From Azolla caroliniana (Eukaryota > Plantae > Polypodiophyta), in the NCBI GenBank assembly GCA_043228905.1, contig JBHGNT010000004.1, forward strand, positions 17,298,001 through 17,362,000: DNA of 64,000 nt, read 5' to 3'. The translations under genes and the position numbers were made by a program. Positions 1 through 63,481 of the stretch are shown piece by piece. The notes beneath the pieces are model-generated. The model did not search any database and was not told the origin of the DNA. It worked only from the letters and a program-made list of their open reading frames with translations. The first letter of the stretch is position 1; every line of letters starts with the position of its first letter.

Positions 1-1368
1 ATCCAAGAAATTTATGGATAGTGATGAAAATTAATTTTTTCACCCGTCTGTATAATGTCATTTAGCATGCAGAAGAGGCAAAGACACGAGAGAGATTATA
101 TATAATCACTATTTTCTTGCATTGCAAAATGTAAAGGGGATTTTGATTTCTTCTTTATGTACTGATTGGTGTTTATTCTACTCCATAAAATTGTCAGAGT
201 GTTAAAATATCTGCCCCTCCCTTCTAAGGCCCAATAAAACAAACGTAAAGCGTTGTTTTCTTCTCCGGAATCAACAAAACTACAAACAACAAGGTTTGGG
301 GAGGAAAGAATGGATAGCTCCCATTGGAACCTTGTTGAGAAGGCGCAAACGGAGGGGTGGGTGGGTAAGCACTCCATACATACTCTGTAATGCTCCTTAA
401 AAGAACACTTGGAGCTATTGAGCTAGACAAGCATACCATTCGAAGGTAGGCATTACGATCACCTACTATGCACGTTTACTTGTGAGATTTGAAGTTGGCA
501 TTTGAAACTAGATAGACCACGTAGGTACATTGCACCCAATGAAAAGATACAAAAATGTGCATCCTCACGTTGTGACATGTAGTGATCATGGCCATTTGAC
601 AAAGCTCACCCTCACTTGCCTTATTTATAGACTAGGACCACTACCATTTTGACAAATCCATCTTTTTAGTCATGCTAATGTGTTCTCTATGAGACATGCA
701 TAGTATTGACCATACACCAATAGGAGACACTTGCAATTCTCCTTTTTTGGGAGAAGGATGTGACTAATGATTAAGCAAATGGACGTACAATCAAAGGAAA
801 GAAATGGATTAAGGGCACTTTTTCTCCATAGATGGGTTTTCGAAGTCGACATACGTGATTTGGGAATTGAACACTTTCAAAGTAGGGTGGTTGTTGCATG
901 TAGAATTATTCATTGATTTCACCATGTAAAAATGCCATTTGAACGTCTAAATGATGAAGTTCAAGGTTTAATGATGCAACAAGTCCCACGAGCATACGAA
1001 ACGACTTTATCTTTAGAGTGGGGCTAAAAGTAACTTTGAACTCAATTCCAGGTACTTGCAAGAATCCTCTTGCAACGAGTCAAGCTTTATAATGGAAAGG
1101 CTTGCAAAGAGAATCTCATTTAACTCAGAGTACCCACTTACACGTGACTATCTTCCGGTGTCGTGATGTGGCGTGCTCGAGAGTGGGAAAAACCAGCGAA
1201 AGGGGGGGGGGGGGGGTAAAAATGTGCAAAATAAAAGGGAAAAGAAAGGGTGGAAAGGATGCATAGAAGCCCGTGCAAAAAGTAAGAGAGAAGAGAGATA
1301 AAATGTAGAGGAGAGACGAGCTAAGAATTTATAGAGATAGAATTATATATTACATAAGAGAGAGTTAG

Positions 1369-1422
1369 TGGGCTAGTGGATAGTCACATTGACTACTAAC
1401 TAGAGGTGTATGGTTCCAATCT
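1369..1422 (+). promoter_or_regulatory. tRNA-like Pol III A-box/B-box module in G1 LTR (second copy 8397-8450)
   Basis: A-box TGGGCTAGTGG with a 4-bp D-stem (GGCT/AGTC), variable-loop-like AGGT, B-box GGTTCCAATC (3' copy GGTTCAAACC), at tRNA spacing. Confidence 0.55.
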
Positions 1423-1990
1423 AGTCTTATAGTGTAACGTGATTTAAGGAATTTTATTCCTTTTTTAGTGAAGACAAAATTGGTGACCCCCTTTCTTTTT
1501 TTCCTATAAAAGGAGGTCGAGGGGGGCTCATTCGGGAGGACGTTTTGGGAGGAGGAGACTATCGCCATTTTTCCTTCGGAGCTCTTCATATTCTTCTTCA
1601 CCACTTCTCTTCATCTCATACCCCTTCATCCCCTTATCACCACGTGCTCGTCTTCTTCGCGTCGGCACTCGAAGTGCTCGTGAGCCCAAGCTTCGTTGGT
1701 TCGACGTTGCTTCACCCCGTTCGTCGTTGTGAGCCCGTGTGCTCGCCGTTCGGGTGGTCGTGGTTCGTTGGGGTTGGCATTTTAGTGGTGCTCATGTTTT
1801 CATCTTCGTCGTGGTCGGTTTTGCTCTTGTCCCTAAGGGCATTTAGTATTTATGTTTGATTAAGCCGGTGGTTAGCTAGAAGTTGCTATTGTACTCAAAC
1901 CCTATTTATAAAGGGGCCTCTTGTGTTGGAATCAAACATGTATTTACTCCTTTGGACGATATCATTCGTGTTTGTGTTATCGTCCCCTTG

Positions 1991-2374
1991 GGTTCATAGA
2001 GAGGATTCATAGAGAGAGTTCGTAGAGTGGGTTCGAAGAGAGGATTCGTAGAGAGAGTTCGTAGAGTGTGTTCGAAGAGAGAATTCGTAGAGTGGGTTCG
2101 TAGAGTGGATTCGTAGAGAGAGTTCGTAGAGTGAAGATTCGTAGAGTGAGGATTCATAGAGTAAAGATTCGTAGAGTGTTCCAAGAGAGGATTCGTAGAG
2201 TGGGTTTGTAGAGAGGATTCGTAGAGTGAAGATTCGTAGAGAGAGTTTGTAGAGAGAGTTCGTAGAGTGAGGATTCGTAGAGTGAGGATTCGTAGAGTGA
2301 AGATTCGTAGAGTGAGGATTCGTAAAGTGAAGATTCGTAGAGTGAGGATTTGTAGAGTGAAGATTCGTAGAGTG
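1991..2374. repeat. Minisatellite of 13/15-bp units (GATTCGTAGAGTGAR / GTTCGTAGAGAGA) in G1 5' LTR
   Basis: Directly visible tandem array; homologous array at 18130-18578. Confidence 0.95.
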
Positions 2375-2498
2375 CTTTATATTTATAAGATTTAAAATAA
2401 ATAAATAAATAAATATTTATCCCTTGAGTACTCCCTAGTCCAAGACCCCCGTGGTCTCGCCCAAGTAACACACGCGCGCGAAACTTCGCGACATAAAT

Positions 2499-2516
2499 TG
2501 GTGAACCCAACGTGAA
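2499..2516 (+). promoter_or_regulatory. Primer-binding site complementary to tRNA-Trp
   Basis: TGGTGAACCCAACGTGAA versus the reverse complement of the plant tRNA-Trp(CCA) 3' end as recalled (TGGTGAACCCGACGTGAA), 1 mismatch. Confidence 0.85.
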
Positions 2517-2538
2517 AGGGTAGCAAGGGAGAACCAAG

Positions 2539-4680
2539 ATGCAAGGAGGAGAACTCGCTGAAACGAAGGTGGCGGCGGTGGACTACTCGGTAAATGCCCG
2601 AGAAGGCATCACCGTCCTAGAGCAGGCCATAGAGACGATGGTCAGCACAACGGGTCGGTTTAATGGAAGAGATATCGCGAGCTACTTGGATGCCTATAAG
2701 GCCGAAATGCTTATGCGAAACGTCCTCGAAGATAGGCGGCTAACCGGATTCGCTAGAGTGCTAACGCCGAGTATCCACGTAGAAGTATTCGAGATCCAAG
2801 CGGATTGTTGCAATTGGGTGGAGTTCGAAGAAAGACTCCTCGAGAAGTACGACGTTGATGACTCACTCAGAATTTCGAAAAGGGATCTAATGGACTGGTT
2901 TGAGCTTCCCAGCAAGGGGAGAAATACTATGCTACTTTTACAAGAATTTGAGAAGCGCTTCGGGCGACTCTCGGTTCTCGATAGGATGGTGCTTGACACA
3001 AGCAAGGTCCTACTATTCATAAGGACTGTTGATGCACGAGACCGAGAGAAGGTGGGGTCCCTCCTTGAAACTGATGATGGGCTCACGACGGATTGGGCTA
3101 TGGTAAAACGGGTTTGTAGCCACTTCGATAAGAGAAGGGAATGGAATGACGGGTCTCCATTGAGCGGCCAAACATCCACAGGCTCCATTAGTGAGACACA
3201 CGAACCCAGGGGTGGTAGAATACCTCAAGATAGAGAGCAAGCAAATGCAAGGTTCGTCCCTGAGAGAAACGTGGTTGAAGCACCGTCGGGAGGGTTGGAA
3301 ATAGACGAGCTCACAAAGATGGTGCGAGATCTCCAAATAGCGCAAGCTAGGAGAGAGAGTGGGGGCCCTCAAGATCAACGTCCCCTGTTCACGCAAAGAT
3401 GTATGTGGTGCGACAACCCCGACCACCTACAAAGGGAGTGTGGAAACTTTCAAGAGGCCCTAAGAAAGGATATTGTTTATCTTTGGAACAATAGGGTCTA
3501 TTCGACGGAGACAAGGAGCCCCTTGGGATTGAATCAAGGCCAAGGGGGCATGAGAAGGCTAATGGAGGAGGCCGGAGCATGACATGTTGAAGCCATCCAC
3601 TACTCGGCATCGGCTGGGATCCGAGTGGGGAAAGAGGTGAGGAGGCAAGAGGAGAAAGAGTTTGACTTTTGGCCGTCAATCCTTGGAAGCCTCTCTAAGG
3701 GGAAGTTCAAAAGAGAAGAAGCGGAAAGAAGGGTTCAAGAAGCAACCGGATGGAAGGATCTGGTGGAAGAAAAGATAGGCTTAGTGGAAGCCGCTTGCCA
3801 AAACTACGAAGTAATGGTAGAAGAGAAGAAGGTAGGAAATGATGAGGGAGCCGGTCCATCAAGGAAATACGACGCTCGAGGTGCACGAAGAAGGGAAGAG
3901 CCAAACCAGTCTCAAGCACACGACAAAATATGGAAAGAGAAGGGGAACCCCCCCAACTTCAAGGTTTGCTCGGAGATCGAACAAGCAACGGACTTGAAGA
4001 AGGTAGTGGAAGAAAGGATCCTCGATAGTCGTGTAGAGTTTACTCTGCAAAAGGTCCTCGGAATTGCCAAGAAAGAATTCCACGAGGTCATCATCGACCT
4101 AATGAAGAGGAAGTAGCTCTCGACGGAGCAAGAAGTGGCAAAGCCCGCGATTGTAAATGCATTGTCAACCGAGATTCCCGAGGAAGACGAAGACTATGCG
4201 GACAGTCACTACACAGGGCTGCATTGGGCGAGAGCGACAACGGAGACACCGGTATGGGTCGGAGATGTAAAAGAGCCGGTTGTAGCATTGATCGACCATG
4301 GCTCTGAGATCAACCTTATGTCCATGGATTTTTATAAAAAGGGAAAGTGGCCGATCAACACGAAGCACGGGTGGAAGATTAGAGCAGCGACCCGAGCAAC
4401 CGAGGAGCTATACGGGGCTCGCCCGAATGTACGTGTGAAGGTGGGGGACGTAGAAATAGATCAACATTTCTTTGTTCAAGAGACGTCCTCACATCCGGTC
4501 ATCTTGGGTGAACCATACATCACGGCGGCTTGCATGGAGACGAAGGTGCTAGACAACGGGCCGGCATATGCGAGGGTCAAGAGCCAAGATGGGAAGCATT
4601 TGGTCCAATTCCTTACGGTGAGGCCCAACCATGAGCACAATCGAGCCTCCCTCAATGGGGAGAGCCAAGAGGATTTTTAA
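2539..4680 (+). pseudogene. G1 gag-protease, with in-frame stops at 3582 and 4116
   Basis: Three same-frame ORFs; zinc knuckle CMWCDNPDHLQREC; aspartic protease motif LIDHGSEIN...VILG. Confidence 0.85.
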
Positions 4681-7600
4681 TTCGGGCTATTAAAGAGTGG
4701 GGTCGCAATAGTTTGAGGCAAACTGAGACCCTAAACCCTTGTAAAACTATTAAATGTAATAGGAAACAGTTATGGTTCTCCGAAAATGGAGCTTGTAAAA
4801 TTACTAGTTTAAGTGATAGAGATAAGTCTAGGGCCAAGAGATACGAAAGGTATCTCAAACAATGTAATTTATTGGGGGAAGATGACACCATATGTGGCGC
4901 CATGGAGGCGGTCTCGTTCGACGACACTCTCAGAGAGATGGAGAGGGTAGTCGTTTCGGGCCTCAATGAAGACAAGGTAATTCCAGTCAACTCAGTTGAC
5001 ATGTACACCGCCATCGAAGAGCTTGGGTGGTTGATTGAGGAAGCAAGGACGGTCAAGGCGCAAACAAAGTACAAGACCGTGGACAAGAAGGTGAAGCCTG
5101 TGGCTGCCCCATTGCCTAACGATAGTTGGGATCGGATAAAGGGGGTTGCGGCTGATCCTAGCTTGCGGGACCCACGAGGCATAGGGCACTGGTTCACCGA
5201 CGAGACGCGACAGAAGCTCCGGATTGGTGGGGGTGGTTTCCTATTGCCTAGGGAGGAGGAAAGATTTAGAAGGATGATCGAAAACCATGGAAGGGCTTTC
5301 GCCTTCTCGTCGGGTGAGATAGGGTGTGTAAACCCTAAGATCATGGAGCCAATGGTGATCTTTATGGTGCTGCATGTACCGTGGAACATCAAGTCAATCC
5401 CGGTTCGAGAGCTCACATCCCGAAGTTGATTGAGCTACTCAAGGAAAAGATCGAGATGGGTATCCTCGAGCCATCAAGCGCCCCATACTCGAATTGGTGG
5501 TTCACTGTGCCAAAGAAGAACGGCACCTTACGCTTCATCCAAGACCTATAACCTGTTAATCAAGTGACAATTCAAAATGCGGGGGTCGGTCCGAGCGTTG
5601 ATGAATTCGCCGAGGCCTTCGCTGGAAGGTCTATTTATTTGATCGGTGATCTAGTGCGAATGTGTACCTTGCCACAAGGAGGCACTAACTCTGTAGCCCA
5701 CATGGTAAATGCAATGAACAAGGTATTGAGAGATTGCATCCCCGACATCACCATGCCGTTCCTCGATGACATCCCCATAAAAGGGTGCTCTGAAACGGAG
5801 AAAGATGAAACCTTGGACGAGGATGGGTGCAGACATTTTGTGGCATATCACATCTCCGATTGCGAGAAGATTCTACAAAGACTCGAAGATGCACGCTTGA
5901 CCTTCTCAGGTGAGAAATCGGCATTCGGCCAACCGGAGATCCTTGTGGTGGGACACTTGTGCGGGGCGTACGGACGGAAGCCGTCCCCGGCAAAGGTGGA
6001 CGCCATCACAGACATGAGGGAAGAATGTAAATCGCAAACAAAGGTGAGGCGATTTCTTGGTGCCTGTGCATTCCACCACATCTGGATCCCGCACTATGCT
6101 CACCTAGCCGAGCCCTTGTATGGGCTACTCAAGAAGGGGCGGAAGTTCAAGTGGGAGGAAGAGCATACCGAGGCAATGAAGAGGCTCAAAGGAATGTTGG
6201 TAGCGGCACCAACTTTACGAAAAGCCGTATACAAGGAAGGGGTGCCCATCTACGTGACGGTAGATATGAGTCCAACTGGGATCGGATGGGTCATAAACCA
6301 AGAAGGAGAGGATGGTACACGCTACGCCATCCGGTTCGGAGCCAAGGTCTTAAGTGAGCGACAACGAGGATACGCCCAAGTAAAACGTGAGCTTTGGGGA
6401 ATTGTGTCCGCATTAAAGGCGGATAAAGATTACCTAATCTGGTCAGAGGTGGTAATAGAGACGGATTGCCTTCCAATCCTAGGGATAGTTTCAGGATGTG
6501 CAACACCTGACCTAGCTATGCTAAGGTGGATTGCTTACATCAAATCGATGAACTCGGAGATTCACCACATTTCAGGGAAATATAATGCCATGGCAGATAT
6601 GCTATCGAAGGCAAGATTTGAGGGCGAATGCGACATGGTGTCTGAAGATGAGGATGTCGCACTTGACTTCTTTATGATGCCAAACGTCTATAGATGATCG
6701 AGATGTACGAGTACTCCATGCCTTCAATGAAAGTGAATACGAAGGGGAGTGGCTACACATTGGCAAGTTCTTAAGCTCAATGATAGTGGATAGTTCATGG
6801 TCGAAGCAGGAAGCACAGAGAGTCCGAAAGAAAGCATACAAGTACTTCCTATGAGGGGGATTCCTCTGGAGGCACCCGAAGAGAAGGACGGGGACACCAC
6901 AACGAGTGGTGATAAAGGAGGAAGACCAGACAACATTGGTGTCTGAGTTCCACGAGAGTCCTTGGGCGGGCCATAGAGGAACGTGGGCAACATTTGAGAA
7001 GTTAAAGGAGAAGTATTGGTGGCCGGGAATGTACAAGAATGTCACCCATTTCGTGGGGATGTGTGAAAGCTACTAGATACACTCCAACATACGCCATAGG
7101 GACGAGTTGCACTCGACCTACCCACTCACCATACACTTCAAATGGATGGTGGATTTGGTTTCGATGCCAATGGGAGTGGGCCAAATGAAATATTTGGTGC
7201 TAGCAAGAGAAGACCTAACAAACCAAGTAGAAGGGTGAGCCTTAGCAAACAAAACGACAGTGGGGGTGTGTAAATTCTTACTCGAGGATGTCATCTGCCG
7301 GTACGGATGTGTGGGAAAGATAGTGGCCGACAGAGGAGAGCTGAACGCTCATGAAGCTACAGAGCTCTTTGACCGACTTGGAGTGAAGCTCTCTCTCACG
7401 ACCGCTTATAACTTGGAGGCTAATGGAAGGATAGAACGTGGACATGGGCCTATCGTAAAACCCATTGTAAGAGCTTGTGATGGGCGAGTTGGGAATTGGC
7501 CTCGGTTACTACCTTATGCCTTGTGGGCCGACAGAACAACTCATAGCTCAGTTACAGGTTTCATGCCAGCTGAACTCATGTACGGACAAAAGCCGGTGAT

Positions 7601-8088
7601 GCCTATTGAAGACATGGGTAGCGATGCCGTGGGAAAACGAGATGAGTCGAGAAGAGCTTCTAGCCACAAGGATAAGGTAACTTGAGAGAAGACTCCAAGA
7701 CTTGGAGTTGGCAAAGGAGAGGTTAGAAGCGGCTAGGCTAAGTAACAAAGCCCGATTCGACAAGACACACCAACTACGCCCTCGGAAAATTGAAGAAGGA
7801 GACGGGGTGATTGTTTATGATAGTAGTCTCGACAATCAACATAGCTCGATGCGGAAATTCGCAAAGCGATGGTTCGGGCCGTACGTGGTGACGAGTGCAA
7901 ATGATAATGCTACCTACCACCTCTCTGAACTTGATGGGACTAAGTTGGCAGTACCAATAGCAGGGAAGCGGGTCAAAATCTTCAAAAAGCGACATGATAG
8001 GGAGCCAAACCTCGATGACCTTGACGAAGATAAAGACGAGCAAACAACAAGTCACGGGGTCAATGAGGAGGAGGAAATGAACTATTGA
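4681..8088 (+). pseudogene. G1 pol (RT-RNase H-integrase), with frameshifts, stops and an internal RT deletion
   Basis: LPQGGTNS and FLDD RT motifs; RNase H VVIETDC and NAMADMLS; integrase IVADRG...NGRIER and WFGPY; no chromodomain seen. Confidence 0.88.
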
Positions 8089-8572
8089 CCACCCTCGGCC
8101 CGCCATTCTTGGCACATACTGGAGGATGTGCGGTTTGGTGGGGGTGGATGTCGTGATGTGGCGTGCTCGAGGGTGGGAAAAACCCGGTGAAAGGTGGGGG
8201 GTCAAAAATGTACATGTGCAATGTGTGCACACAAAGCGATTAGTTGTGCATATGCAAAATAAAAGGGAAAAGAAAGGGTGGAAAGGATGCATAGAAGCCC
8301 GTGCAAAAAGTAAGAGAGAAGAGAGATAAAATGTAGAGGAGAGACAAGCTAAGAATTTATAGAGATAGAATTATATATTGCATAAGAGGGAGTTAGTGGG
8401 CCAGTGGATAGTCATGTTGACTACTAGCTAGAGGTCCATGGTTCAAACCTAGTCTTATAGTGCAACGTTGTCGTAGTGTATTTTGTACACTACGTGAAAA
8501 ACTTATAAAGTATCGATTTAATAAATATGAATAAATAGTAGAAAATATCAAAATGTATATAACATGCATAGG

Positions 8573-8629
8573 GCAAGATTCAAACCTTGCACCTCCATGT
8601 TAATAATATAATGTCTTACCATTACACTA
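8573..8629 (-). promoter_or_regulatory. tRNA-like A-box/B-box module in G2 LTR, antisense (copies ~11409-11465 and ~20722-20778)
   Basis: Minus strand reads TAGTGTAATGGTAAGAC...GGAGGTGCAAGGTTTGAATCTTGC. Confidence 0.55.
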
Positions 8630-9276
8630 GCATTTCATTAGTGTTTAAAAATAGATGTTCCACATAGAAAGGTAAGTTCACGCTAGGATAAACTTTAGAA
8701 AAACACATAATAAAAGAAAAAGCTACACATGCCCATGTAGCGTGCATGAACACTATAGTCAATAAAAAAAATGCACAAGTTAGGAAAAGCATGATCACTT
8801 TAGATAAAGCATATAGTCTATCTATAGAAAAAGCATGGAGTCTATAGTTAGAGAAAACGCATGGGTTGCAAAAGACTCTCTCATCTCTATATAAGGATGA
8901 GGAGCACAATGTAATAGGTGTGTGAAATATTTGAAAATTGGATATATTTCCGAAAACACCAACCGATTAATATAATTGTGGGATTCACGAAAATAATATA
9001 ATCTATACTTGTGGGATTCACAAGTTTCTTATATCTTTCTTTCAATCTAAATACATATTCTTATCTAAATATTGATTAATCGAATACAATACACTCGTGG
9101 GATTCACGAAATTTCTATCTCTCTTTCTAATAATCTATTCATCACTAGCCTCATCTCATATTCTTCTTTCTCCTAGTCCAAAACCTCAATGGTTCCCACC
9201 CGGCTCACGCAAACGATCTAACGCTGAAAGGCACGACACATTTGGTGAACTTGACGTGAAGACGGGTGGCAAGGGG

Positions 9277-11190
9277 ATGGAGAATCAACAAGAGGTGATG
9301 AACATGATGATGATGGTTGAGCGGATGCAACAAGAACAACGCGCGATGACGGAGATGAAGGCGGCAGTAGAGCGGCTTGTGCGACGAAATGGGGAATTCA
9401 ACGGAAATGATGTGTCACGCTATCTACGTGACTACAAAGGGGAGATGATGCGATGTGGGATACCGGAAGGATTGCAAGTGATATCCTTTAGTCGGGTAGC
9501 CACGGATGAGTTACAAGAAAGAATCTACAAGATACGGCAACAAAACCCAACATGGGGGTCCTTTGAAGAAGCTTTACGAGAGGCATATGACTACGAGAGA
9601 TCGAAGGGACGAGATCGACGCGAGTTTGACGAATGGGTGGCATCGGAGAAGACCCACCGAAGTGCAACACAAGCATTCCTAGAGTTCGAGCATCATTTTG
9701 CTCGAATCTCGGAGCGGGAACAAAGATTGGTGGGGGAGGATAAAGTCCTAATGTTCGTAAAATCGATCGATCGAAAAGAAAGGAAGGACATTGGGATTGA
9801 ACTCGAAGACGATGACGGTACGAATGGTCTTACCGAAGATTGGGCCGAAGTCCAAAGGGTATGCCGGAGACATGATGAGAGGAAGATGAGAATCTTGTCA
9901 ACGACATGGCCGATGAAGGATGGTCGATTGAAGACAAACGATGGAGCCGATATGAAGGCCGAAATACAACATGATGGTGCGACGGAAGAGGGTGTAAAAC
10001 AAGCTACCCTCTTGTCTTGCGAAAGAACAATGACGAAGGATAAGGACGATAACCCAAGTGTAGAAGAAGATTTCAGAATACAAGTGTCCGAAATATCGGG
10101 TGAAAAAGAGGTAAGCATAATTGATGCAGTGAAAGAGAGCAAGGAGGACTTGATTGAGGAGGTCGCCACGAAAGATGACATCGAATCAAAGGTGGCTATG
10201 GACAAATCAACGACGGATGGCCATATCGAGACTTCCCCACCACTGATTCCAGAGACTCCGGCGGTTGCGTTCGAAAGGCAACGTGAGACCGAAGAGACGG
10301 AAGGTGGCGGAGAGACATTAAAGGTCGAAGCCGATGCGTATGATGGAGAGATAGCCGAGAATATGGCTATGGGTGAAACAACGGAGGATGATAATACCAA
10401 GGATTCCTACCCACTAATTCTAGAGACTTCGGCGGTTGTGTCCGAGAACCAACGTGAGATTGGAGAGACGGGAGGTGGCAACAAGGAAGGTAAAGTCGGA
10501 AGCCGGTTCGGATGGAAGATGATCCGTCTGAAATTCCGATGTAAACAAAAGCACGACAACGCGAAGGTCGGGTCTACGATGGGAGAAGCATGTAATACGG
10601 AGCACGTGCTACGGCACCAAAAGAAGCACGTGCTACGGCGTAAAGAGAAGCACACACTACGGCGCAAAAAGAAGCACGCGCTATGGTGCAAAAAGAAGCA
10701 TGCACTACGGGGTAATACGACGCATGCACTACGATGGAATACGAAGCATGCGCTACGGCCTAATACGACGCATGCGCAACATCGAGAAATAAAGCATGCA
10801 TTAAAGCTGCACAAGGACCTAATAGCGAGCGCGTATTCGGAGGTCGACATCGACGCGTGGGTAGAACCTACGGAAGACAAGCGCGGAGTGGAGAGAGACA
10901 ACACACCGAGATGCTCAAGAGTACCACAAGGGACCATGACAACCACTCATGGCAATGCAAAGAATGAACGAAGATTATGGTGGATCGGATGGCGACAATG
11001 GTTCGGGTGGAAAGAAGGGATGTGCTCAAAATGGAGAGACAAAGCTGACATAGCAAGAGAAACGAAGGGTACAACAAGTAATGAAGAATTACGAGGTCTG
11101 GTAACCGGAGACCGGATAGAGCCGGCAACTGAACTGAACCGGAAACCGGGCGGAGTCGGCAACCAAAAACCGGAGACCGAACGGGGCTGA
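9277..11190 (+). CDS. Gag-like protein (637 aa) with an acidic region and a basic 8-aa HALR repeat
   Basis: ATG just after the PBS. GEFNGNDVSRYLRDYKGEM and KVLMFVKSID...GLTEDW align with G1 Gag (GRFNGRDIASYLDAYKAEM; KVLLFIRTVD...GLTTDW). No internal stops. Confidence 0.8.
   Translation: MENQQEVMNMMMMVERMQQEQRAMTEMKAAVERLVRRNGEFNGNDVSRYLRDYKGEMMRCGIPEGLQVISFSRVATDELQERIYKIRQQNPTWGSFEEALREAYDYERSKGRDRREFDEWVASEKTHRSATQAFLEFEHHFARISEREQRLVGEDKVLMFVKSIDRKERKDIGIELEDDDGTNGLTEDWAEVQRVCRRHDERKMRILSTTWPMKDGRLKTNDGADMKAEIQHDGATEEGVKQATLLSCERTMTKDKDDNPSVEEDFRIQVSEISGEKEVSIIDAVKESKEDLIEEVATKDDIESKVAMDKSTTDGHIETSPPLIPETPAVAFERQRETEETEGGGETLKVEADAYDGEIAENMAMGETTEDDNTKDSYPLILETSAVVSENQREIGETGGGNKEGKVGSRFGWKMIRLKFRCKQKHDNAKVGSTMGEACNTEHVLRHQKKHVLRRKEKHTLRRKKKHALWCKKKHALRGNTTHALRWNTKHALRPNTTHAQHREIKHALKLHKDLIASAYSEVDIDAWVEPTEDKRGVERDNTPRCSRVPQGTMTTTHGNAKNERRLWWIGWRQWFGWKEGMCSKWRDKADIARETKGTTSNEELRGLVTGDRIEPATELNRKPGGVGNQKPETERG
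10603..10810 (+). repeat. 9 x 24-bp coding tandem repeat (H[AVT]LRxxxK/T)
   Basis: His codons at 10603, 10627, ... 10795, period 24 bp. Confidence 0.9.
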
Positions 11191-12623
11191 CAACCAAAAA
11201 TGACCGGTGACGAAACCAACCATGCGGAGAACGGACGGACGAGACTAACAATCACCGACAATTTCGGCACATACCGGAGGATGTGCGGGTTCGGAGGGGG
11301 CGAGTGTCGTAGTGTATTTTGTACACTACGTGAAAAACTTATAAAGTACCGATTTAATAAATATGAATAAATAGTAGAAAATATTAAAATGTATATAACA
11401 TGCATAGGGCAAGATTCAAACCTTGCACCTCCATGTTAATAATGTAATGTCTTACCATTACACTAGCATTTCATTAGTGTTCAAAAATAGATGTTCCACA
11501 TAGAAAGGTAAGTTCACGCTAGGATAAACTTTAGAAAAACGCATAATAAAAGAAAAAGCTACACATGCCCATGTAGCGTGCATGAACACTATAGTCAATA
11601 AAAAAAAATGCACAAGTTAGAAAAAGCATGATCACTTTAGATAAAGCATATAGTCTATCTATAGAAAAAGCATGGAGTCTATAGTTAGAGAAAACGCATG
11701 GGTTGCAAAAGACTCTCTCATCTCTATATAAGGATGAGGAGCACAATGTAATAGGTGTGTGAAATATTTGGAAATTGGATATATTTCCGAAAACACCAAC
11801 CGATTAATATAATTGTGGGATTCACGAAAATAATATAATCTATACTTGTGGGATTCACAAGTTTCTTATATCTTTCTTTCAATCTAAATACATATTCTTA
11901 TCTAAATATTGATTAATCGAATACAATACACTCGTGGGATTCACGAAATTTCTATCTCTCTTTCTAATAATCTATTCATTACTAGCCTCATCTCCTATTC
12001 TTCTTTCTCCTAGTCCAAAACCTCAATGGTTCCCACCCGGCTCACACAAACGATCTGACGCCGAAAGGCACGACAACGTGATTTAAGGAATTTTATTCCT
12101 TTTTCATTGAAGACAAAATTGGCGATACCCCTTCTTTTTTTCCTATAAAAGGAGGTCGAGGGGGGCTCATTCGGGAGGACGTTTTTGGAGGAGGAGACTA
12201 TCGCTATTTTTCCTTAGGAGCTCTTCATCTTCTTCTTCACCACTTCTCTTCATCTCATACCCCTTCATCCCCTCATCACCATGTGCTCATCTTCTTCGCG
12301 TCGGTACTTGAAGTGCTTGTGAGCCCAAGCTTCGTTGATTTGACGTGGCTTCGCTCCATTCGTCGTTGCGAGCCCATGTGCTCGCCGTTTGGGTGGTCGT
12401 GGTTCGTTGAGGTTGGCATTTTAGTGGTGCTTGTGTGTTTATCTTCGCCATCTTAAGACTAATGTTGAACCGATTTGGTTCAAAATAATGCCTTGTGCCG
12501 CCTTTTATAGTGTTGTCAGGAGTACTCCTGAAGTTTCTAGAATGTTCTAGAGAACTCTAGAATATACATCAATTTCTTATAATAAAACTTAAATGAAAAT
12601 AATATTTTTCGTATAACAATATA

Positions 12624-12677
12624 TAGTCTAATGGTAAGAGCTCGACCCATGTAGTATAAGGTTATGGGTTCGAGTCT
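12624..12677 (+). promoter_or_regulatory. tRNA-like A-box/B-box module in G3 LTR, antisense to the element (second copy ~17877-17930)
   Basis: TAGTCTAATGGTAAGAG...AAGGTTATGGGTTCGAGTC. Confidence 0.6.
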
Positions 12678-12684
12678 TGCCATA

Positions 12685-15600
12685 TCATGACACTATCCCC
12701 CCTTTAAAACGATGAGTGTCACGAGTCGTTTTGGAGTGAGGACCTAGTTTGTGTGGATATTGACGATGGAAGTCTTCAAGAAGAGTACGAGCATTGATGA
12801 AATTCTCGATTGGTTCCCAAGTACGTTCGTTGGGACTATATCCTAGCCAATCGACTAGATAGTAGAGCTTGTTGCGAACAATCTTGGAATCAAGGATGGC
12901 GGCAACCTCGTACTCCGGTCCATCTTCAAGCTCAATCGGGGGTGGAGGTTGTATAATACGTCCTGGGATGGTGCTCTCGTGATAGGGTTCAAGGAGAGAA
13001 CTACGAAACACCGGATGTATCCGAAGTTGTGGAGGTAGATCGAGACGAAAAGCGACATCTTTAATGTTTTGGATAATACGGAAAGGACCTAATCGCTGAT
13101 AATCCAACTTCTCACATGGGCGAGTAGTCTTGATGTGTCGTCATAGCAGCCACACCCGATCTCCAATGTTAAAACTGGATGGAAGTCGATGACGATCCGC
13201 GTAGACCTTGTGTGTTTGTTGAGCTTCCTGGAGATGAGTAGATAAATCCGCTTGTATCTTGCGTAACCGCTCCAAACAATCCTCCGCGCAAGGATTTGTG
13301 GACACCTCTGGGGTTTCAAGTACACACCACCGAGGGTGACATCCCGTATAAGCATAAAATAACATAAGTTTAGTCGATGTGTGGATAGAGTTATTATAGG
13401 CAAATTCGGCGAAGTGGAGAATATCTGCCCAGTTATCGTGATGATAGCTGAGAAAGCACCGCAAATACTGCTCCAGCGTTTGATTTGTTCGTTCGGCTTG
13501 GTCGTCGGTTTGTGGGTGGTAGCCGGAGGAGAGGTTACAAGTGACCTTGAGCATTTTAAAAAGGTGCTTCCAGAATTTTGACGGTCGCAGATGAGGTCCA
13601 CGGTCGCAGATGATACTATCGGGAAGTCCATGATGCCAACATACTTCACGCATGACAACTTCGGCGGTGTCTTCACTGGAGATTTCCTTAGTACATGGCA
13701 AGAAATGAGCCATCTTCGTATATCGATCTACCACTGTTAGAATCACATTGAACCCCTTAGAGACTAGAAGATTTGTGATGAAGTCTAGAGCAATGGATTG
13801 CCACAACTTGCTTGGAATTGGTAATGGGTCTAATAAACCATATGGATGATGCCTTGGCATTTTCGCTCTGCAGCATGTATCACAAGTCTGAACAAAATCT
13901 TTGACAAATTGTCGCATACGGGGCCACCAGAATGATCGTTGTACTAAATCTAATGTTTTAGTACTACCAAAATGCCCAGATGTATGTGTCATGACAGTTT
14001 TGTACTACTCGAAGGCGGCAAGAACCATTAGGAACATACAAAAGTTCTTTAAAGAAGAGTAATCCATCATGGTATTTGAATTGCCGATAGTCCGTACCTG
14101 GTGGTTGCGACTGTGAACACGACGCTCGAGAGGGATCAATTTGTGCTAGTATAGCTTGGGCGAAAGCATCTGTCTTCAGGTCCGCACGTATGATATTGAT
14201 AACGTGGGAATCCATGGGCATGCCAAAGACCTGTGTTGCTTGCAGTCGTGCCGGTCCCAAGATTACTTGCTTTTGGTTATCGAAAGCTGGTTTGCCTGGA
14301 CGCGGTGCTAGGTAGGAACGCCGTGATAATGCATCTGCTTTCCCTTGATGCTTCCCAGGTCGATATGTAATCTTGAAATCGAAACGCGTGAGAAAATGGG
14401 CCCACCAAGCTTGATGTCGATTTAACACACGAGTGTCCTGAAAATAGGCGAGGTTTTTGTGGTCACTGAATACAGTGACTTGATGAAAAGATCCCTCTAG
14501 AAAATGCCTCCATTGCTTAAAAGAGTTCACTATAGCCAATAGCCCATTGCTTAAAAGAGTCCACTATAGCCAATAGCTCTTTATCATGAATTTCGTAGTT
14601 GATTTCGGCGGCGTCAAACTTGCGTGAGTGAAAAGCCACAAGATGTAGCTTTTCATCATTACCTCGTTGTGATAGAATGCTCCCCAATGCAAAATCCGAT
14701 GCGTCCGCCTCGATGATGAATGGTTTTTCTGGATCAACGTGAGCTAGAATCGGAGCCAATGTAAATGCCTTTTTAAGATTCTCAAAAGCCATGTCCGCTT
14801 CTTCAGACCAAACGAACGATTGTCCCTTCCTAGTAAGTTGTGTAAGAGGCAAAACGAGCTTTGAGTAATCCTTTATAAACTTCTGGTAAAAATTGGCAAA
14901 GCCTAGAAAGCATTGCACATCCCGCATCAAACGCGGAGTCTACCATTCTACCACTGTTTTGACCTTAGCTGGGTCCATGGAGATGCCTTCTGAGGAAATG
15001 ACATAGCCGAGAAATTCCACCTGGTTGCACCCGAAACTACATTTTTCTAGCTTTGCATAAAGACCATGTTCTCGAAGTCGTTTTAGTACTAACAGTACAT
15101 GACAATCCTGCTCTTCTTAGGTCTTTGAGTAAACCAGTAGATCATCCAAATAGATGACTAGACACACATCCAAGAGATCTCGGAAAATATCATTTGCCAT
15201 GTGTTGGAAGACTACTGGCGTATTAGTGAGGCCGAATGGCATGACTGTATACTCGAAGTGCCCATATCTGGTGCGAAACGCGGTCTTCCATTCATCTCCT
15301 GGTCGGATGTACGAGGTTATAGGCTCCCCGTAAGTCGATCTTCGTGAAGAACCTGGCACCATTGATTCGTTCTAAAAGACTTGAGATAAGGGGGAGTGCA
15401 TACCTATTTCGGTTTGTAACCTTATTCAAGACACGGTAATCTACAACAAGACGAAGTGAGCCATCCTTTTTCTTGACGAAGAAAATGGGTGCGCAGGCTG
15501 GAGATTTCAAATGTCGTATGAAACCATTCTCCAAATTCTCCTCTATATAGGCTCGAAGGACTTCCAGTTCGGTTCGTGACAGATTGTAGATCAGTCCCCA

Positions 15601-16300
15601 TGGTGGCTCTTTCCCTGGTTGTAAATCGATGGGGTAATCATATGGTCGATGGTGAGGAAGTGTATTGGCTTGTACTTTATCAAACACATCGGCATAATGA
15701 CGATACTTCTCTGGAAGTTGAACGGTGGATTCCTCTTTAGTGGTGCTAGAGGGTTTTACTGATATTGCGAAGAGGAACATTTCTTCCTTGCATCCTTCCT
15801 CACGCAACTGATGTAGTGAAATCATTGCAATCTCATGAGTAGACCCTTGGGCTTCTCGATGCTGGATTTCTCTTGTCCGCCAATCTATGTCTAGGTTATG
15901 TAATTCGAACCATGGTAATCCTAAGACAATGGGGTGTTTTGGGATGCTAATTATATTAAATGATATGACACATGCTAGATTATCTAGGGCAATATTAACG
16001 GGCTCTGATTCTTCTATGATATTTCCGAAAGCAATGGGACAACCATCAATGACTACTACAGAAGCAGGACATAGGAGTTTTCTGAGAGATATTTGATGAG
16101 CTTGGGCAAATTTCCTATCCATGAAGCAAGAATTAGCTCCGGAATCTAGAAGTGCTAAGACATGTACTGGAGGGGTACTTTTAGTACTAACTGTTACTTG
16201 GACTACGAACACATTGCTAACTTGCTTAGAGGGAATGGAACCACTAATGGGCTGCATAGATCTAGGGCTGTCCAACCAAACGACTCCTATTTTGGTTGGA
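12685..16300 (-). pseudogene. G3 pol (PR-RT-RH-INT-chromodomain), frameshifted
   Basis: Fragmented ORFs 15292-16275, 15117-15362, 14517-14930, 13964-14539, 13141-13992 and 12685-13107. Confidence 0.9.
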
Positions 16301-16301
16301 C

Positions 16302-18129: not shown

Positions 18130-18578
18130 GGTTTGTAGAGAGAGTTCTTAGAGAGAGTTCGTAGAGTGGGTTCGAAGAGAGGATTCGTGGAGAGAGTTCG
18201 TAGAGTGGGTTCGCAGAGAGGATTCGTAGAGAGAGTTCGTAGAGTGAAGATTCGTAGAGTGAGGATTTGTAGAGTGAAGATTCGTAGAGTGTTCGAAGAG
18301 AGGATTCATAGAGTGGGTTCACAGAGAGGATTCGTAGAGTGAAGATTCGTAGAGAGGATTCATAGAGAGAGTTCATAGAGAGAGTTCAAAGAGTGAAGAT
18401 TCGTAGAGAGAGTTCGTAGAGTGAGGATTCGTAGAGTGAGGATTCGTAGAGTGAGGATTTGTAAAGTGAAGATTCGTAGAGTGAAGATTCGTAGAGTGAG
18501 GATTCGATTCGTAGAGTGAAGATTCGTAGAGTGAGGATTCGTAGAGCGAGGATTCGTAGAGTGAAGATTCGTAGAGTG
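18130..18578. repeat. Minisatellite in G1 3' LTR
   Basis: Same units as 1991-2374, with different length and order. Confidence 0.95.
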
Positions 18579-21640: not shown

Positions 21641-21643
21641 ACG

Positions 21644-49600: not shown

Positions 49601-50332
49601 CAGACAGATTCGAAAGAACCGGATCAATTCAAGGCCAAGAGGATGAGAAAGCAACGAAAGTCGACGCCAACACGAAGGAATCGGCGAATCGGCAAGCGTC
49701 AAAGTCACAACAGCGAGGGAGCTGAATTGGGCTTGTTCAGCAGACAACCCGACCGAGGAGGTCGAGGAGCACAGAATCCGAAGGGTCGTGGCAAACGGGA
49801 CCGAACCGGACGAGGAGCACGAGCGAGGCGGAGTGACGCTAGAAGGAGCCATGTGGAAGGACCGGCTGCCATGGAGATTGACACTACGATCCGACCTCAA
49901 GTTGAGCTTGAGGGGGAGTGTTGAGCGGCAAGCTCAACCGGATCCGGATCGGCTGAATAAGCTTGAGCCAGATCGGCATCCGGAAGGATGAGCCGGTGAG
50001 CTGGGGAGCCGGTTAGCCTGATCAAGTAGTAACCGGAAGCCTAGTAGCAGCCTAGACTACTAGGTAGGTAATGTCTCGTAGTTAGTGTCAGACGCTCGTG
50101 TGAGCATTGAAGTACACTGTACTTTTGTCAGTCCTCTTAGGACTTGTATAAATAATGATGTTGAGCACGTTGTACGTACAGTGAATTTTACAGAGTTGTT
50201 GATAATAGACTTAAGTTGTTCTACTCTTTCTTTGTCTCTCCTGCGTACCTTCAATGTGTTAATCTCTCTCTCTCTCTATGTTGCTATACGGCTAAGCCGG
50301 TTGTCTATAGCTTTTGCACCTTCATTTTTACA
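43658..50332 (+). mobile_element. Ty1/Copia element C-B
   Basis: LTRs 43658-44105 and 49919-50332; TSD CCTTC; PBS TGGTATCAGAGC; gag, zinc knuckle, PR, INT, RT (YVDD) and RH fragments. Confidence 0.93.
45633..46427 (+). mobile_element. Solo Gypsy-type LTR in C-B
   Basis: Interrupts WHKR|IGHVN; TSD GTGG/GCGA (ancestral GCGG inferred). Confidence 0.85.
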
Positions 50333-50369
50333 CCTTCTTTTCGTAAGTGTCCGAAAGTGTCTTCCATAG

Positions 50370-55130: not shown

Positions 55131-55162
<32 letters not shown>

Positions 55163-55442: not shown

Positions 55443-56757
55443 CATAGTTGGAAGGTAGTCGAACACGATTGCCCCGTGAAGTACACAGACTCCGATAGGT
55501 GCATCTAAATGGTGGCTCGGATGATTCTGTCGAGATTTTCCCATTCAAGAGACTTGTATCCTTCTAGAGGGTCTTCATTCTCAATGGGGTCAATTTGCCC
55601 TTTGATTATTAGATAGTCTTGCATCTGCTCCTTCCAGAAGTTGCAATTCGATCCGTCGAACTTCCAAAGACTCATCTCTGACACGCCAGATGTTGAAACC
55701 ATCTGTGTTGGTATAATAGACTTTGTCTGGAGTTAGCTACGAACTATGGTGGAGTGCAGCAGTCTGGCTCACTCGATGTTGTTCTAGCCGAAGTTGAACA
55801 CAAGTCGAGATTTTCGAGATTTTCCCAACACGGATTATGTGCAGTACTCCAAGCCGATCCTGTTTCGGTTAACTACAACAATGAGAGGGACGGATTCGAT
55901 TGGTCCTCCCGAATGTCGTTCAGTCGAATGAAACACAGATTGGGGGTGCCCCTGGGGTCGTCTTTGCTTCAGGTGACTACAGGGAGTAGGAAAAAAGTGT
56001 CAGATGACCTATTCGATTTCCACCTAATCGAGTGAAGCAACAATTTGGCCTAGTTAGGATAGAAGTCTCACTCCAAGTAGTTATGATCACATAACCAAGA
56101 GTGACCTAGAACAATAGAGTGTAGACTTCGTCACGTTTCTCTTTGCGTAGACAATCTTGTTGTAGGTTGCCTGTCGGGATGAGCTAAGATCTTCAGGATA
56201 GACAAAAGGAGAGTTGTCGATGGAGACTACATAGAAGGTGGCAGCAGAATCAAACAGAAAACCATGCTCTGATATCAAATGTTGGGAACGTCGTCTTCTA
56301 ATGCAGAACAAGATCAACAGTCTTCTAGGATAAGATCGTAAATGGATGCAAGATCATAGCTTTGATGGCAGCAAAGAGAGAAAGTAAAAGACAACTAGTT
56401 TGCAAGAGAGAGAGTCAGAGTTCAATGAAGTTTATTACAACCTTTTTACAAAATGAGAAACCAACCCGTAAATGGGTTACAAAGTCAGTTTATATACTGA
56501 CTAACTTAGGGCAATTGCCCTTCTCACTATTTACATAAATAGCTTAAGTCTAGTGTGTTCAAAAGGAGACAGTGTGAATATGTCCATTAGAAACACGTAT
56601 TCAACACGCATCATATATGCAAGAGAGTGCCTAACTCCCTACTCTAATCTTCAATCGTGCCCTCGTGGAGGGTTTTCCACCACAATGGACTATGAACACA
56701 GTGGCCCCCATACATAAAGGGCGGGACCCCATGGACTGAAATACATATAGGACCATT

Positions 56758-60231: not shown

Positions 60232-61182
60232 GAACTCCTCCCAATTGAGTTCAAATTCAATGGACCAGCCACATACTTGAGTTGGTCACATTGGATTATA
60301 GGTGCCTTGGCAAGGAGAAGCCTTGACGGCTACCTAACGGTTCAAGAGAAAGAACCTCCTATCAAAACGAGCAATGAATGGAAAGCATTGAGAGCTACCC
60401 ACATGTCTTTGTGCACGTGGCTCCTCAACTCCATGGTTCCATCAATCACCACAACTATTGATGGAATTTTACGTGTGAAGGAGATTTGGGAGAAATTGCA
60501 AAAGATGTATGCTGGGAGGGGAAATGACATGAGATTATTTCAAATCGAGGAGGAGATAGATGTCGTCTAGCAGGGAGATAGGATGATTCATGAATATGTC
60601 ATAGATCTAGAGCATCCATGGGCAAAATATGCTCATTTCTCGTCTGTGACAGTGTGCAATGATCCTCAATGTAAGAGCAAGGAATTTTTTTCTCAAAGAA
60701 GAACCATGCAATTTTTGAAACATCTCAACCCGTCGTTTGATCAAAGAAGGGCAATTCTTCTAGCCAAGTCTGAAATTCCCACACTTGATAAGGGAATAAC
60801 GACTATGATACAAGAGGAGAGTAGAATGAAGTTGCACTCTGACACTATCGGACTTCCAAGGGTACGATCGACACTAATGGTGTCAAATTCAAGCGAAAGT
60901 GAAAATAAAAAATGCTACAATTGTGGTGAAGCTGGTCATTTAAAGAATGCTTGCCCTAAACCATCTAAGGAGAGAAAATATGGAGGACGTGGACAAACTA
61001 GAGGTCGTGATCGAGGAAGAGATGGAAGAGGAGGTCATCAAGCAAACCTAATGGTAGCAAAAGAAAAGGAAGGAACTAAGGTGGTGTTCACCGAAGAGGG
61101 TCACGCTATCGTGTAGTTCCGCTCACGCGGGAGAAACTAAGGCGGGACCGCGGGGGTCTTGGACTGAGGGGTTTAAGAGATC

Positions 61183-61218
<36 letters not shown>

Positions 61219-63480
61219 CGTGAGCGTATCGCCAGCTAGGCCTGCTCGTTGCTGACATTGTTACTGGCCGAATAAGAGTTGAACGTGTATAGTCTCCGAA
61301 CCTGATACACGCTCACCGGGCAAGGTAGAGGGAACTCACGAGAACACAAGAGAGAGAAAACAGAAGCTTGAATTCGATAGCTAGCAAGGTTTCAATGTAT
61401 GCAAGATTACAACCGGAAAGCCGGCAATAGACCCGACACAGAGAACCCACGCACACACACACGACATAGAGAACGCACGATGGAGCCTTTGCTAGAAGCA
61501 CGCGGGCTTACGCGCAGCAGAGGCAACCACGCAGAAACAGAGTGGAGAGCAACAATAGAGGAGGAGAGAGCTCGATACCTAGTCTGACATCACCTCGTCC
61601 TCGCCAGAACACGCTCCCTTCTTCTTCTCCTCCCCTCCCTTTTATAGGTCGCCGAGGAGGCCATTACATCAAAACACATCAACTTTATTCTCTGTCCTTT
61701 CGGACAGAGATACATGTCGATTTCCTAGCTAATAAATATGTCATACCTAGTATATTTACATCAGCCGTTCTATTCCTAGTTAGGTACAATGTATCAAGTC
61801 GCACACACTCGAGCAAGGGCGGGTTCACGCCTTTAATTCCTTGATTCCTCTTAAGGCTGGTTTTCTTCATGACAACGCTCTCTTAGATATACTTAAGAGG
61901 AAGCAAAAAGTTGTAAATGATACTTCATTCATGTCAAGAGGTAACATTGCCACTTATGCTTATTCGGCCACAAGTACTAACAACACAAATACTATTGCCT
62001 CTACACCAAAATGGATAATTGATTATGGTGCATCGAGTCATGTCACAGGTAATGCTAGTGAATTCTCCTCGTATACTCACCTAGCAATGCCAGAGAGCAT
62101 TCAAATTGTTGACGGTAGAACACAACTTGTAGTGGGTATAGATACAGTAAAATGTATCGACTCTATGACATTGTCTAATGTGTTGCATGATCCTTCTTTC
62201 CCAATAAACCTATTATCCATAAGTTCTATCATACGCCAACTAAAATGTGTTGTTTCTTTTGATATTCCCAAGGTGATATTCCAAGAGAAAGGGACATGTC
62301 GGAGACTAGGCATTGGCACATGGCATAGTGGACTTTGGTATTTGGATCGTGAAGGGTTGGATTCAACATTAGCATCTATGGTAAAGGGAACAGATGTAAG
62401 GGGATCTAAAATTAGTTATCATGAGTTGTTGATACTTTACCACCAATGTACGGGACATACCTCTTATGGTGTTTTGAGTCGGTTGTAGCCACACCTCTTT
62501 GAAAAGACTGATAGAACAAAACTTGTTTGTGATGCATGTGAATTTGGTAAGCTTACTAAAAGCTCATGAATATGCTAGTTCAGGCCATAGGAGTTCCCAT
62601 GCATTTGATGTAATACACTCTTATGTTTAGGGACCATGTTCCACAAGTTCTATTAATGGATATAGATATTTTGTCCCTTCCATTGATTGCTTCACTCGTG
62701 TGACTTGGTTATATTTGATGAGGAAAAAGAATGAAGTATTTTCTTGTTTTAAAGATTTTCATAGAGCAATTCAAACTCATTTAGGGCATACCTCTCAAAT
62801 CAAGGAACACAACATCAAACTACATGCCCATATACACCAAAATAAAATGGAGTAGTAGAGAGGAAGAATAGACATCTTCTAGAGGTAACAAGAAGCATGA
62901 TGATTTCCATGAATGTCCCAAAGCAGTTGTGGAGACAGGCAGTTTTCACAACTGCCGCATTGATCAATAGAATGCCTTCTAGAGTATTGGAGTGGAAGTC
63001 TCAATGTGAGTTGTTGCAAGGCAATAACTCTGGAATCTTTCCTTTGAAGGTGTTTGGATATGTTTGTTTTGTAAAGGACAGTAGACCATCTGTAGGAAAA
63101 CTTGATCCTAGAGCTGTGAAATGTGTATTTGTGGAATACTCTGCCACACAAAAAGGCTATGTTTGTTGGAGTCCAGTAGAGAAGAGATTATTTGTGAGCA
63201 GGGGTGTGCATTTCAGAGAGTTAGAGCCATGTTATAAACAAGAGGTAACTTAATTGAGACGGAAAATATGAGGGAAGGAGATAATATTGAGAGGTTGCTA
63301 AAATTAGGATGAATTCCTTTGTTGATCCCTACATCAGCTGAGAAATAAGTGAGCATAGGCGATAAGGAAGAAGAAGGAAAAGAAGACGAGGAACCTATAT
63401 GTGTTGGGTCTCAGCTAATTGAGGGGGGGCTAAAGGTGTATACAAAGAAGAGAAGTCAGAAAGAAGGAAATATGAGCACG
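60232..63480 (+). mobile_element. Degenerate Copia gag-PR-INT fragment
   Basis: Zinc knuckle CYNCGEAGHLKNAC, PR WIIDYGASSH, INT KLDPRAVKCVF. Confidence 0.82.
61107..61874 (-). mobile_element. Solo Gypsy-type LTR
   Basis: TATCGTG...CATGACA termini with a perfect 4-bp TSD ACGC (61103-61106 / 61875-61878); TATA on the minus strand near 61642. Confidence 0.82.
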
Positions 63481-63481
63481 T

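What the first reader, a model, noticed from the sequence alone, without database searches (positions are those of the whole stretch)
1155..63481. CpG-centred integration: all seven insertions of the TGTCRT...RACA LTR group sit at NCGN
Seen: perfect 4-bp TSDs CCGG (1155/18698), ACGT (8465/12076) and ACGC (61103/61875). Two are reconstructed from decayed copies: CCGT (CCAT/CTGT at 38916/39637, with the empty site CCGT visible in the sister LTR near 56466) and GCGG (GTGG/GCGA at 45629/46428). Two single flanks read ACG (21641) and ACGT (63478). All have CG at positions 2-3, although the host TEs show CpG decay. The Copia TSDs CCTTC and CATAG are 5 bp and lack this pattern. Inference: this lineage's integrase prefers a central CpG, possibly methylated, which would steer it into silenced TE DNA without a chromodomain.
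Basis: partly seen in the sequence, partly recalled or inferred. Interest (0 to 1): 0.75.

Follow-up and report, generated by a model that had tools for sequence, protein, structure and literature searches.

The report
Plant retrotransposon inserting only at CG
A group of plant jumping genes in this genome has inserted almost only at four-letter sites with CG in the middle, a habit already published for the moss Phygy lineage to which they likely belong; their integrase likely reads the CG letters directly, and whether it needs the CG to be methylated is untested.

Summary
All seven junctions read as stated. One LTR family has CG at TSD positions 2-3 in 716 of about 800 host flanks, another group in 1025 of 1212 junctions; background is 3.9%, a Copia control 6 of 569, a chromovirus control 51 of 2140. 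Most exceptions are TG/CA with CG kept in the twin copy, so about 98% of targets were CG at insertion. The elements are chromodomain-less Ty3/gypsy with a tRNA-Trp primer site and 4-bp TSDs: the profile of Phygy, for which Neumann et al. 2019 already report the NCGN preference. No tree with Phygy references could be built. Added here: near-absolute specificity; T avoided at position 1 and A at 4 (a general integrase trait); several families, in a host that is probably not Physcomitrium patens. The CG rule alone lifts landings in repeats from about 61% to 80% (seen: 89%), so methylation is not needed to explain the pattern, though not excluded; no bisulfite data were available. Best mechanism: direct CG readout by the integrase at the bent centre of the target, tolerant of methylation. 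Two look-ups in the scan's earlier notes did not return this finding.

The parts
1155..1158 (+). TSD CCGG, left copy (family B element)
1159..18697 (+). Phygy-type Ty3/gypsy element, family B, about 8.4 kb without its two nested inserts; gag and pol broken by stops and frameshifts
1159..2493 (+). 5' LTR of family B element, with a short-unit tandem array at about 1990-2374
2499..2516 (+). primer binding site complementary to tRNA-Trp(CCA), one mismatch in this copy
2524..8085 (+). gag (DUF4100), RT, RNase H and integrase pieces; no chromodomain
8149..18697 (+). 3' LTR of family B element, preceded by a short purine tract, interrupted by two nested elements
18698..18701 (+). TSD CCGG, right copy
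8465..8468 (+). TSD ACGT, left copy (family A element)
8469..12075 (+). gag-only non-autonomous family A element; LTRs 8469-9238 and 11305-12075 differ at 12 of 770 sites; 704-codon frame 44% like the gag of pol-bearing relative L402
12076..12079 (+). TSD ACGT, right copy
12452..17946 (-). control, not of the group: Tcn1-like chromovirus with chromodomain; LTR also starts TGTCATGA; no NCGN rule
20617..21640 (+). older family A 3' LTR; host flank ACGT at 21641-21644
38916..39640 (+). solo LTR 38920-39636 (family C) with decayed TSD CCAT/CTGT, inserted in a Copia LTR
56466..56469 (+). empty site CCGT in the sister Copia LTR
45629..46431 (+). solo LTR 45633-46427 (family C) with decayed TSD GTGG/GCGA, inserted in a Copia Arg codon
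61103..61878 (-). solo LTR 61107-61874 (family D) with perfect TSD ACGC (+ strand reading)
63478..64000 (+). flank ACGT and start of a family C/D LTR at 63482, cut by the window end
43653..50337 (+). control: Copia element 43658-50332 with 5-bp TSD CCTTC

Best explanation
These are chromodomain-less Ty3/gypsy retrotransposons, likely of the Phygy lineage, that have inserted almost only at 4-bp sites with a central CG, and their integrase likely selects the site by reading the C and G bases directly, whether or not the C is methylated. Shown: the 4-bp stagger, CG in about 98% of targets at insertion, T avoided at position 1 and A at position 4, little preference outside the four bases, no chromodomain. 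Inferred from the foamy-virus intasome, the nearest solved relative, which also makes 4-bp duplications: the target is bent and unstacked at the central pyrimidine-purine step, and the edge bias is the general thymine-methyl clash. Inferred: bendability alone would admit TA, TG and CA, so base-specific contacts must single out CG. Candidates are the conserved Arg and Glu just after the second catalytic Asp and a longer basic loop in the C-terminal SH3-like domain. Because TE DNA is the CG-rich part of this genome, the rule by itself sends most insertions into other TEs; selection likely removes those in genes.
For: Counts: against background 3.87% and controls. Twin-copy test: in 20 of 20 solo LTRs picked without regard to flank at least one TSD copy has CG (15 perfect); of 21 solos picked for a TG/CA 3' copy, 17 keep CG in the other copy, 3 show the same change on both, 1 does not pair. 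8 of 8 pol-bearing copies with both ends found have CG TSDs, of 12 fetched. No central TA among the 898 family A junctions apart from linker-class rows. T at position 1 in 18 of 716 and A at position 4 in 21 of 716, against 32% each in background; TCGA 0 of 716 against 10.5%; the same T/A exclusion is near-universal in retroviruses (PMC4422553). Integrase: zinc finger, DDE core, SH3-like domain, then an acidic tail; best PDB matches by sequence and by fold are PFV integrase. D-R-G-E-L stands where PFV has D-Q-G-A-A in most relatives. Flanks hit repeats in 136 of 153 cases (89%), against 642 of 800 random VCGB sites (80%) and 492 of 800 random sites (61.5%); non-repeat AT-rich DNA is hit at the rate its CG content predicts, 10.5% against 11.9%.
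Against: No biochemical or methylome data. The 89% against 80% excess is significant at face value (Fisher p = 0.012; tile bootstrap for the background 72-87%). It comes from near-absence in GC-rich non-repeat, gene-like DNA (1 of 153 against 7.9%), which a methyl-CG requirement would also give. No insertion into a recognisable host exon was found: of 50 frames from 16 of the 17 non-repeat flanks, 3 hit TE domains and none a host family. The residue candidates rest on alignment only; PFV Ala188 contacts bases outside the TSD, not the centre, and the model is modest (pLDDT 67, pTM 0.48).
Confidence: 0.65

Rival explanations
1. The integrase needs or strongly prefers 5-methyl-CG, so it uses host DNA methylation as its heterochromatin signal in place of a chromodomain.
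For: 89% of flanks are repeats and GC-rich non-repeat DNA is almost unhit, 1 of 153 against 7.9% expected. About 10% of TSD copies have decayed to TG/CA, so the sites are methylated at least after insertion. TE CG methylation is about 80% in the moss P. patens (PMC9994747, passages).
Against: CG density alone gives 80% repeats, and AT-rich non-repeat DNA is hit as expected. Selection against exon insertions explains the rest; Copia and Tcn1 controls also show 0 of 27 and 0 of 14 there, too few to decide. No methyl-reading domain by Pfam. TG, a partial methyl-C mimic, is hardly used. Decay after insertion says nothing of the state before it.
Confidence: 0.18
2. Shape readout only: CG is simply the step that this intasome can bend and unstack best, with no base-specific contact.
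For: 4-bp-TSD integrases favour flexible pyrimidine-purine centres (PMC4422553); PFV is the nearest solved relative.
Against: TA, TG and CA are also flexible steps and together are five times commoner than CG in the genome, yet are almost unused once decay is removed; retroviral preferences are described as weak.
Confidence: 0.1
3. A host CG-binding or chromatin protein tethers the complex and sets the cut exactly around the CG.
For: Tethering is known for other integrases (Ty3 with TFIIIB, PDB title). The acidic tail could bind a partner (inference).
Against: Base-exact, symmetric centring on two letters with almost no flank signal fits the intasome's own two-fold centre better than a tether; the acidic tail is not conserved in sequence.
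Confidence: 0.06
4. Artefact of boundary calling or of small numbers.
For: Two of the seven TSDs are reconstructions and two are single flanks; three LTR ends in the window are decayed.
Against: Over 1700 CG junctions genome-wide with exact terminal anchors, perfect 4-bp twin copies, and two negative controls.
Confidence: 0.01

Closest known systems
Phygy clade of non-chromovirus Ty3/gypsy (Neumann et al. 2019, PMC6317226; passages, section 9 and supplementary file 5 read)
   Same: 4-bp TSD with NCGN, tRNA-Trp primer site, no chromodomain, no extra RNase H, size 7-9 kb, coding region filling the interior.
   Different: Described there as specific to Physcomitrella patens; this host is probably another species (43.6% GC, 22 large contigs, against figures for P. 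patens that I recall, not from a call). Shown here in addition: near-absolute use of CG, edge bias VCGB, gag-only derivatives and solo LTRs obeying the same rule. Several copies (6.9-7.4 kb) fall just under the published size range.
Ginger1 DNA transposons (Bao et al. 2010, PMC2836005; passages read)
   Same: Gypsy-integrase-like enzyme, TGT termini, 4-bp TSD that is CCGG (75%) or CCGT/ACGG (24%), so a central CG too.
   Different: Cut-and-paste elements of animals with inverted repeats; narrower motif led by CCGG, whereas ACGT leads here. Kinship of the two enzymes was not tested.
Prototype foamy virus intasome (Serrao et al. 2015, PMC4422553; passages read; PDB hits)
   Same: Nearest solved integrase; 4-bp duplication; flexible pyrimidine-purine centre; T and A avoided at the edges.
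   Different: Weak preference for any YR step, not CG alone; small neutral residue at Ala188 where this family has Glu.
Tcn1-type chromoviruses (RLG1 of P. patens, PMC7466625; passages read)
   Same: Gypsy elements of the same kind of host that also pile up in TE-rich DNA; one lies in the window with a similar LTR start.
   Different: Chromodomain present, 5-bp TSD, CG near background.

Membership tests
Phygy | Ty3/gypsy domain order gag-(PR)-RT-RH-INT | tested here: met
   Pfam order RT, RNase H, integrase in three intact pol frames; gag in an overlapping upstream frame. Protease not detected by Pfam.
Phygy | 4-bp TSD | tested here: met
Phygy | NCGN target motif | tested here: met
   716 of about 800; 1025 of 1212; 48 of 62
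Phygy | PBS complementary to tRNA-Trp | tested here: met
   exact 18-nt match to the host tRNA-Trp(CCA) 3' end
Phygy | no chromodomain, no archaeal RNase H, no extra ORF | tested here: met
   one RNase H stretch and no chromodomain by Pfam; integrase ends in an acidic tail about 75 bp before the 3' LTR
Phygy | length 7.7-10.0 kb (mean 8.6) | tested here: inconclusive
   6.9-9.3 kb in the copies with both LTRs; overlaps the range, some below it
Phygy | groups with Phygy references in RT/RH/INT trees | not testable with these tools
   the reference FASTA is too large to read; no hit is labelled Phygy or Physcomitrium; named relatives are from the liverwort Riccia
Phygy | host is P. patens | not tested
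   host not identified; bryophyte inferred from Riccia relatives and the Tcn1-type neighbour
TatI (also 4-bp TSD, tRNA-Trp) | archaeal RNase H between PR and RT | tested here: not met
   no such domain by Pfam
Selgy | tRNA-Ala PBS, about 5 kb | tested here: not met
   tRNA-Trp, 6.9-9.3 kb
Chromovirus | chromodomain at the integrase end | tested here: not met
   the same scan finds it in the Tcn1-like neighbour
Ginger1 | terminal inverted repeats, no RT | tested here: not met
   direct LTRs and RT present

The most novel reading that the evidence does not exclude
The integrase of this bryophyte lineage is a methyl-CG reader: it integrates only, or far better, at 5-methylated CG, using DNA methylation itself rather than a histone mark to hide in silenced DNA. 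It would be a retroelement integrase that senses DNA methylation at its catalytic centre.
Probability: 0.18. Interest if true: 0.75.

Novelty: new member of a known kind. Interest (0 to 1): 0.3.

Why it matters
Plant LTR integrases are usually almost sequence-blind. One that needs CG at the centre of its target is a rare natural case of strict base choice by this enzyme class. The habit is published, but my search for 'NCGN' with 'retrotransposon' found it in only one relevant paper, without a mechanism. It offers a chromodomain-free way to land mostly in other TEs, since TEs hold most CG here. If methylation proved to be required, it would link DNA methylation directly to integration chemistry.

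Tried and rejected
Boundary artefact or 5-bp TSD: rejected. TGTCRT start as the marker of the group: rejected, the chromovirus shares it. True TG/CA targeting: at most about 2%. Wider palindrome around the site: none clear in 165 CG half-sites; the A excess at outward position 12 is an artefact of the W in my patterns. Bisulfite data: none was listed, which is no evidence. Host exons among non-repeat flanks: none recognised. Cross-kingdom test through fungal Ylt1: the original paper is not held and two other papers gave no Ylt1 TSD in the passages read. Metagenome relatives: 80 loci, mostly collapsed interiors; the 3 with a readable 5' flank were CCGT, GCGG, CCGC, but they are close relatives. 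Phygy reference sequences: not obtainable. Protein atlas: generic Gypsy integrase clusters only. GingerRoot (PMC6839031, passages): 6-bp GC-rich TSD, no CG rule, not comparable. Earlier notes on tRNA-Arg replacing the purine tract concern another lineage: these elements have a purine tract. The largest supplements of PMC6317226 (per-element table and FASTA) could not be seen and may already hold the edge bias and the CG percentage.
Full report
1. Observation. The window is a nest of plant retroelements (G000:C4:17298001-17362000, 523 Mb genome). Three TSDs are perfect (CCGG, ACGT, ACGC). CCAT/CTGT is backed by the empty site CCGT in a sister Copia LTR. GTGG/GCGA splits a conserved Copia Arg codon. 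Two are single flanks, both ACGT. With CG at 3.83% of window positions, chance is 5.6e-5 for the three perfect cases.

2. Genome-wide test. Exact patterns at LTR ends give whole-genome counts; each pattern fixed A or T twelve bases out, so the counts cover that subset only. Family A (LTR 8469): 898 junctions, split into 47 with G/T at position 2 (44 TG, 3 other), 40 with C then not G (38 CA, of which about 5 look like linker variants, and 2 CT), 95 with A at position 2 (94 begin with the internal linker), leaving 716 CG by subtraction, about 90% of host flanks. Family C/D: 1025 of 1212. Family B: 48 CG, 8 CA, 4 TG, 2 other among 62 host flanks in the 100 rows listed of 105 (counted by eye). 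In 100 evenly spaced 10-kb tiles CG is 3.87% of positions. The looser scan of those tiles found 40 junctions: 24 CG, 10 TG/CA, 6 other, the lowest share seen, as expected with older copies and fuzzy anchors. Controls at the same offset: Copia 6 of 569; Tcn1-like chromovirus 51 of 2140, about 43% of which are host flanks by the first 100 rows, so roughly 5.5%.

3. The exceptions are decay. Among solo LTRs fetched without regard to flank, 20 of 20 have CG in at least one TSD copy and 15 are perfect; one locus with a purine-tract-like 5' flank was left out. Among solos picked for a TG or CA 3' copy, 17 of 21 keep CG in the other copy, 3 show the same change twice and 1 does not pair; three ambiguous loci and one local duplicate were left out. 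So at most about 2% of targets were not CG. Of 12 pol-bearing copies fetched, 8 had both ends and all 8 had CG TSDs, one decayed on one side.

4. Shape of the motif. T at position 1: 18 of 716; A at position 4: 21 of 716; C at position 1: 134 of 716; TCGA: 0. Background among NCGN sites: T 32%, C 28%, TCGA 10.5%. ACGT is commonest (56 of 165 half-sites) and flanks carry little signal. The edge bias is not special: T and A are avoided at TSD edges by nearly all retroviruses, ascribed to a thymine-methyl clash (PMC4422553, passages), and by plant 5-bp TSDs (PMC6911290, passages).

5. What the elements are. Intact relatives are 6.9-9.3 kb, with gag and pol in overlapping frames, RT-RNase H-integrase order, a short purine tract and a primer site matching the host tRNA-Trp(CCA) over 18 nt. 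The integrase has a zinc finger, a DDE core and an SH3-like domain, then an acidic tail, with no chromodomain or methyl-binding domain by Pfam. The 8469 element is a gag-only derivative. The family C solos match LTRs followed by the same primer site; for the family D LTRs the link rests on about 70% LTR similarity and the shared terminus. Named integrase relatives are from the liverwort Riccia. The host is likely a bryophyte and was not identified.

6. Known already. Neumann et al. 2019 (PMC6317226; passages, section 9, supplementary file 5) write that Phygy elements have an insertion preference for NCGN and list 186 elements: TSD 4 bp (100%, NCGN), tRNA-Trp 81%, 8.6 kb, no extra domain. Every testable trait matches except that some copies are a little shorter; the tree could not be built. 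A whole-word search for NCGN with retrotransposon returned this paper and one unrelated paper. A search on CpG, insertion preference and methylation returned 8 listings, of which I read only GingerRoot (passages), which has no such rule. Ginger1 transposons, with a Gypsy-like integrase, also make CG-centred 4-bp TSDs (PMC2836005, passages).

7. Does it steer into silenced DNA, and is methylation needed? 300-bp host flanks were compared with random sites. With the 1-Mb tile library, repeats were hit by 82% of 153 flanks, 74% of random VCGB sites and 57% of random sites. With all own-genome loci as library: 136 of 153 (89%), 642 of 800 (80%; tile bootstrap 72-87%) and 492 of 800 (61.5%); Copia 21 of 27, Tcn1 11 of 14 (800 of the 1500 background sites drawn were used). 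So the CG rule alone accounts for about two thirds of the shift towards repeats. The rest is near-absence from GC-rich non-repeat DNA (1 of 153 against 7.9%), while AT-rich non-repeat DNA is hit as expected (10.5% against 11.9%). Selection against exon insertions and a methyl requirement both predict this. No flank frame matched a host gene family and no bisulfite run was listed. Because most targets lie in TEs, whose CG is about 80% methylated in P. patens (PMC9994747, passages), the enzyme likely tolerates methyl-CG; a requirement is not shown.

8. Mechanism. The nearest solved integrase by sequence and fold is that of prototype foamy virus (model pLDDT 67), which bends its target at the central pyrimidine-purine step of a 4-bp site. 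Bendability would admit TA, TG and CA, which are not used, so I infer direct reading of CG at the two-fold centre (0.65). Candidate residues, by alignment only: D-R-G-E-L for PFV D-Q-G-A-A, and a longer basic loop before the WFGPY motif. Rivals: methyl-CG requirement 0.18, pure shape 0.10, host tether 0.06, artefact 0.01.

9. Verdict. Real, strong and genome-wide, but the central claim is in print for Phygy. New here are the near-absolute strength, the spread over several families in a probably different bryophyte, and the demonstration that composition explains most of the TE bias. Interest 0.3; 0.75 if methyl-CG sensing were proven.

Noticed in passing
window 8469-12075: Young gag-only non-autonomous element (LTRs differ at 12 of 770 sites; 704-codon frame, no pol) that still obeys the NCGN rule.
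   Followed up: partly
family A rows: ACG sites seem to decay faster: 35 of 44 TG-decayed flanks start with A, against 46 of 81 intact CG flanks in the listed rows.
   Followed up: no
G000:C11:10476290-10476328: A family A LTR end is followed by a sense copy of the tRNA-Trp 3' arm instead of the primer site; possibly an aberrant reverse-transcription product.
   Followed up: no
G000:C8:17.80-17.82 Mb, C16:4.99-5.11 Mb, C5:10.11 Mb: Dense clusters of the tRNA-Trp 3' end pattern, about 1.2 kb apart on C8, probably tandem tRNA gene arrays.
   Followed up: no
G000:C5:13229102-13232627 and C15:8923059-8926566: Head-to-tail repeats of family A LTR plus primer site at 1166-bp and 1740-bp spacing.
   Followed up: no
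window 12452-17946 (-): Tcn1-like chromovirus nested in the family B 3' LTR; its LTR begins TGTCATGA but does not end in CA in either copy; apparent 5-bp TSD CGCCA/CGCCG.
   Followed up: partly
window 24370-26984 (+): Host L-gulonolactone oxidase-like gene (FAD_binding_4, ALO, GULLO2-like) amid the TE nest.
   Followed up: no
window 28420-29275: Tandem array of five copies of a 171-bp unit, about 97% identical.
   Followed up: no
window 32706-34016 (-) and 56740-58041 (+): A DUF659 (hAT-like, label recalled) frame and a LINE-like reverse transcriptase frame.
   Followed up: no
The lineage is very abundant: 15,225 integrase candidates in the first look, and many of the 150 scored lie in open pol frames of about 1170 codons, so it expanded recently.
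   Followed up: partly
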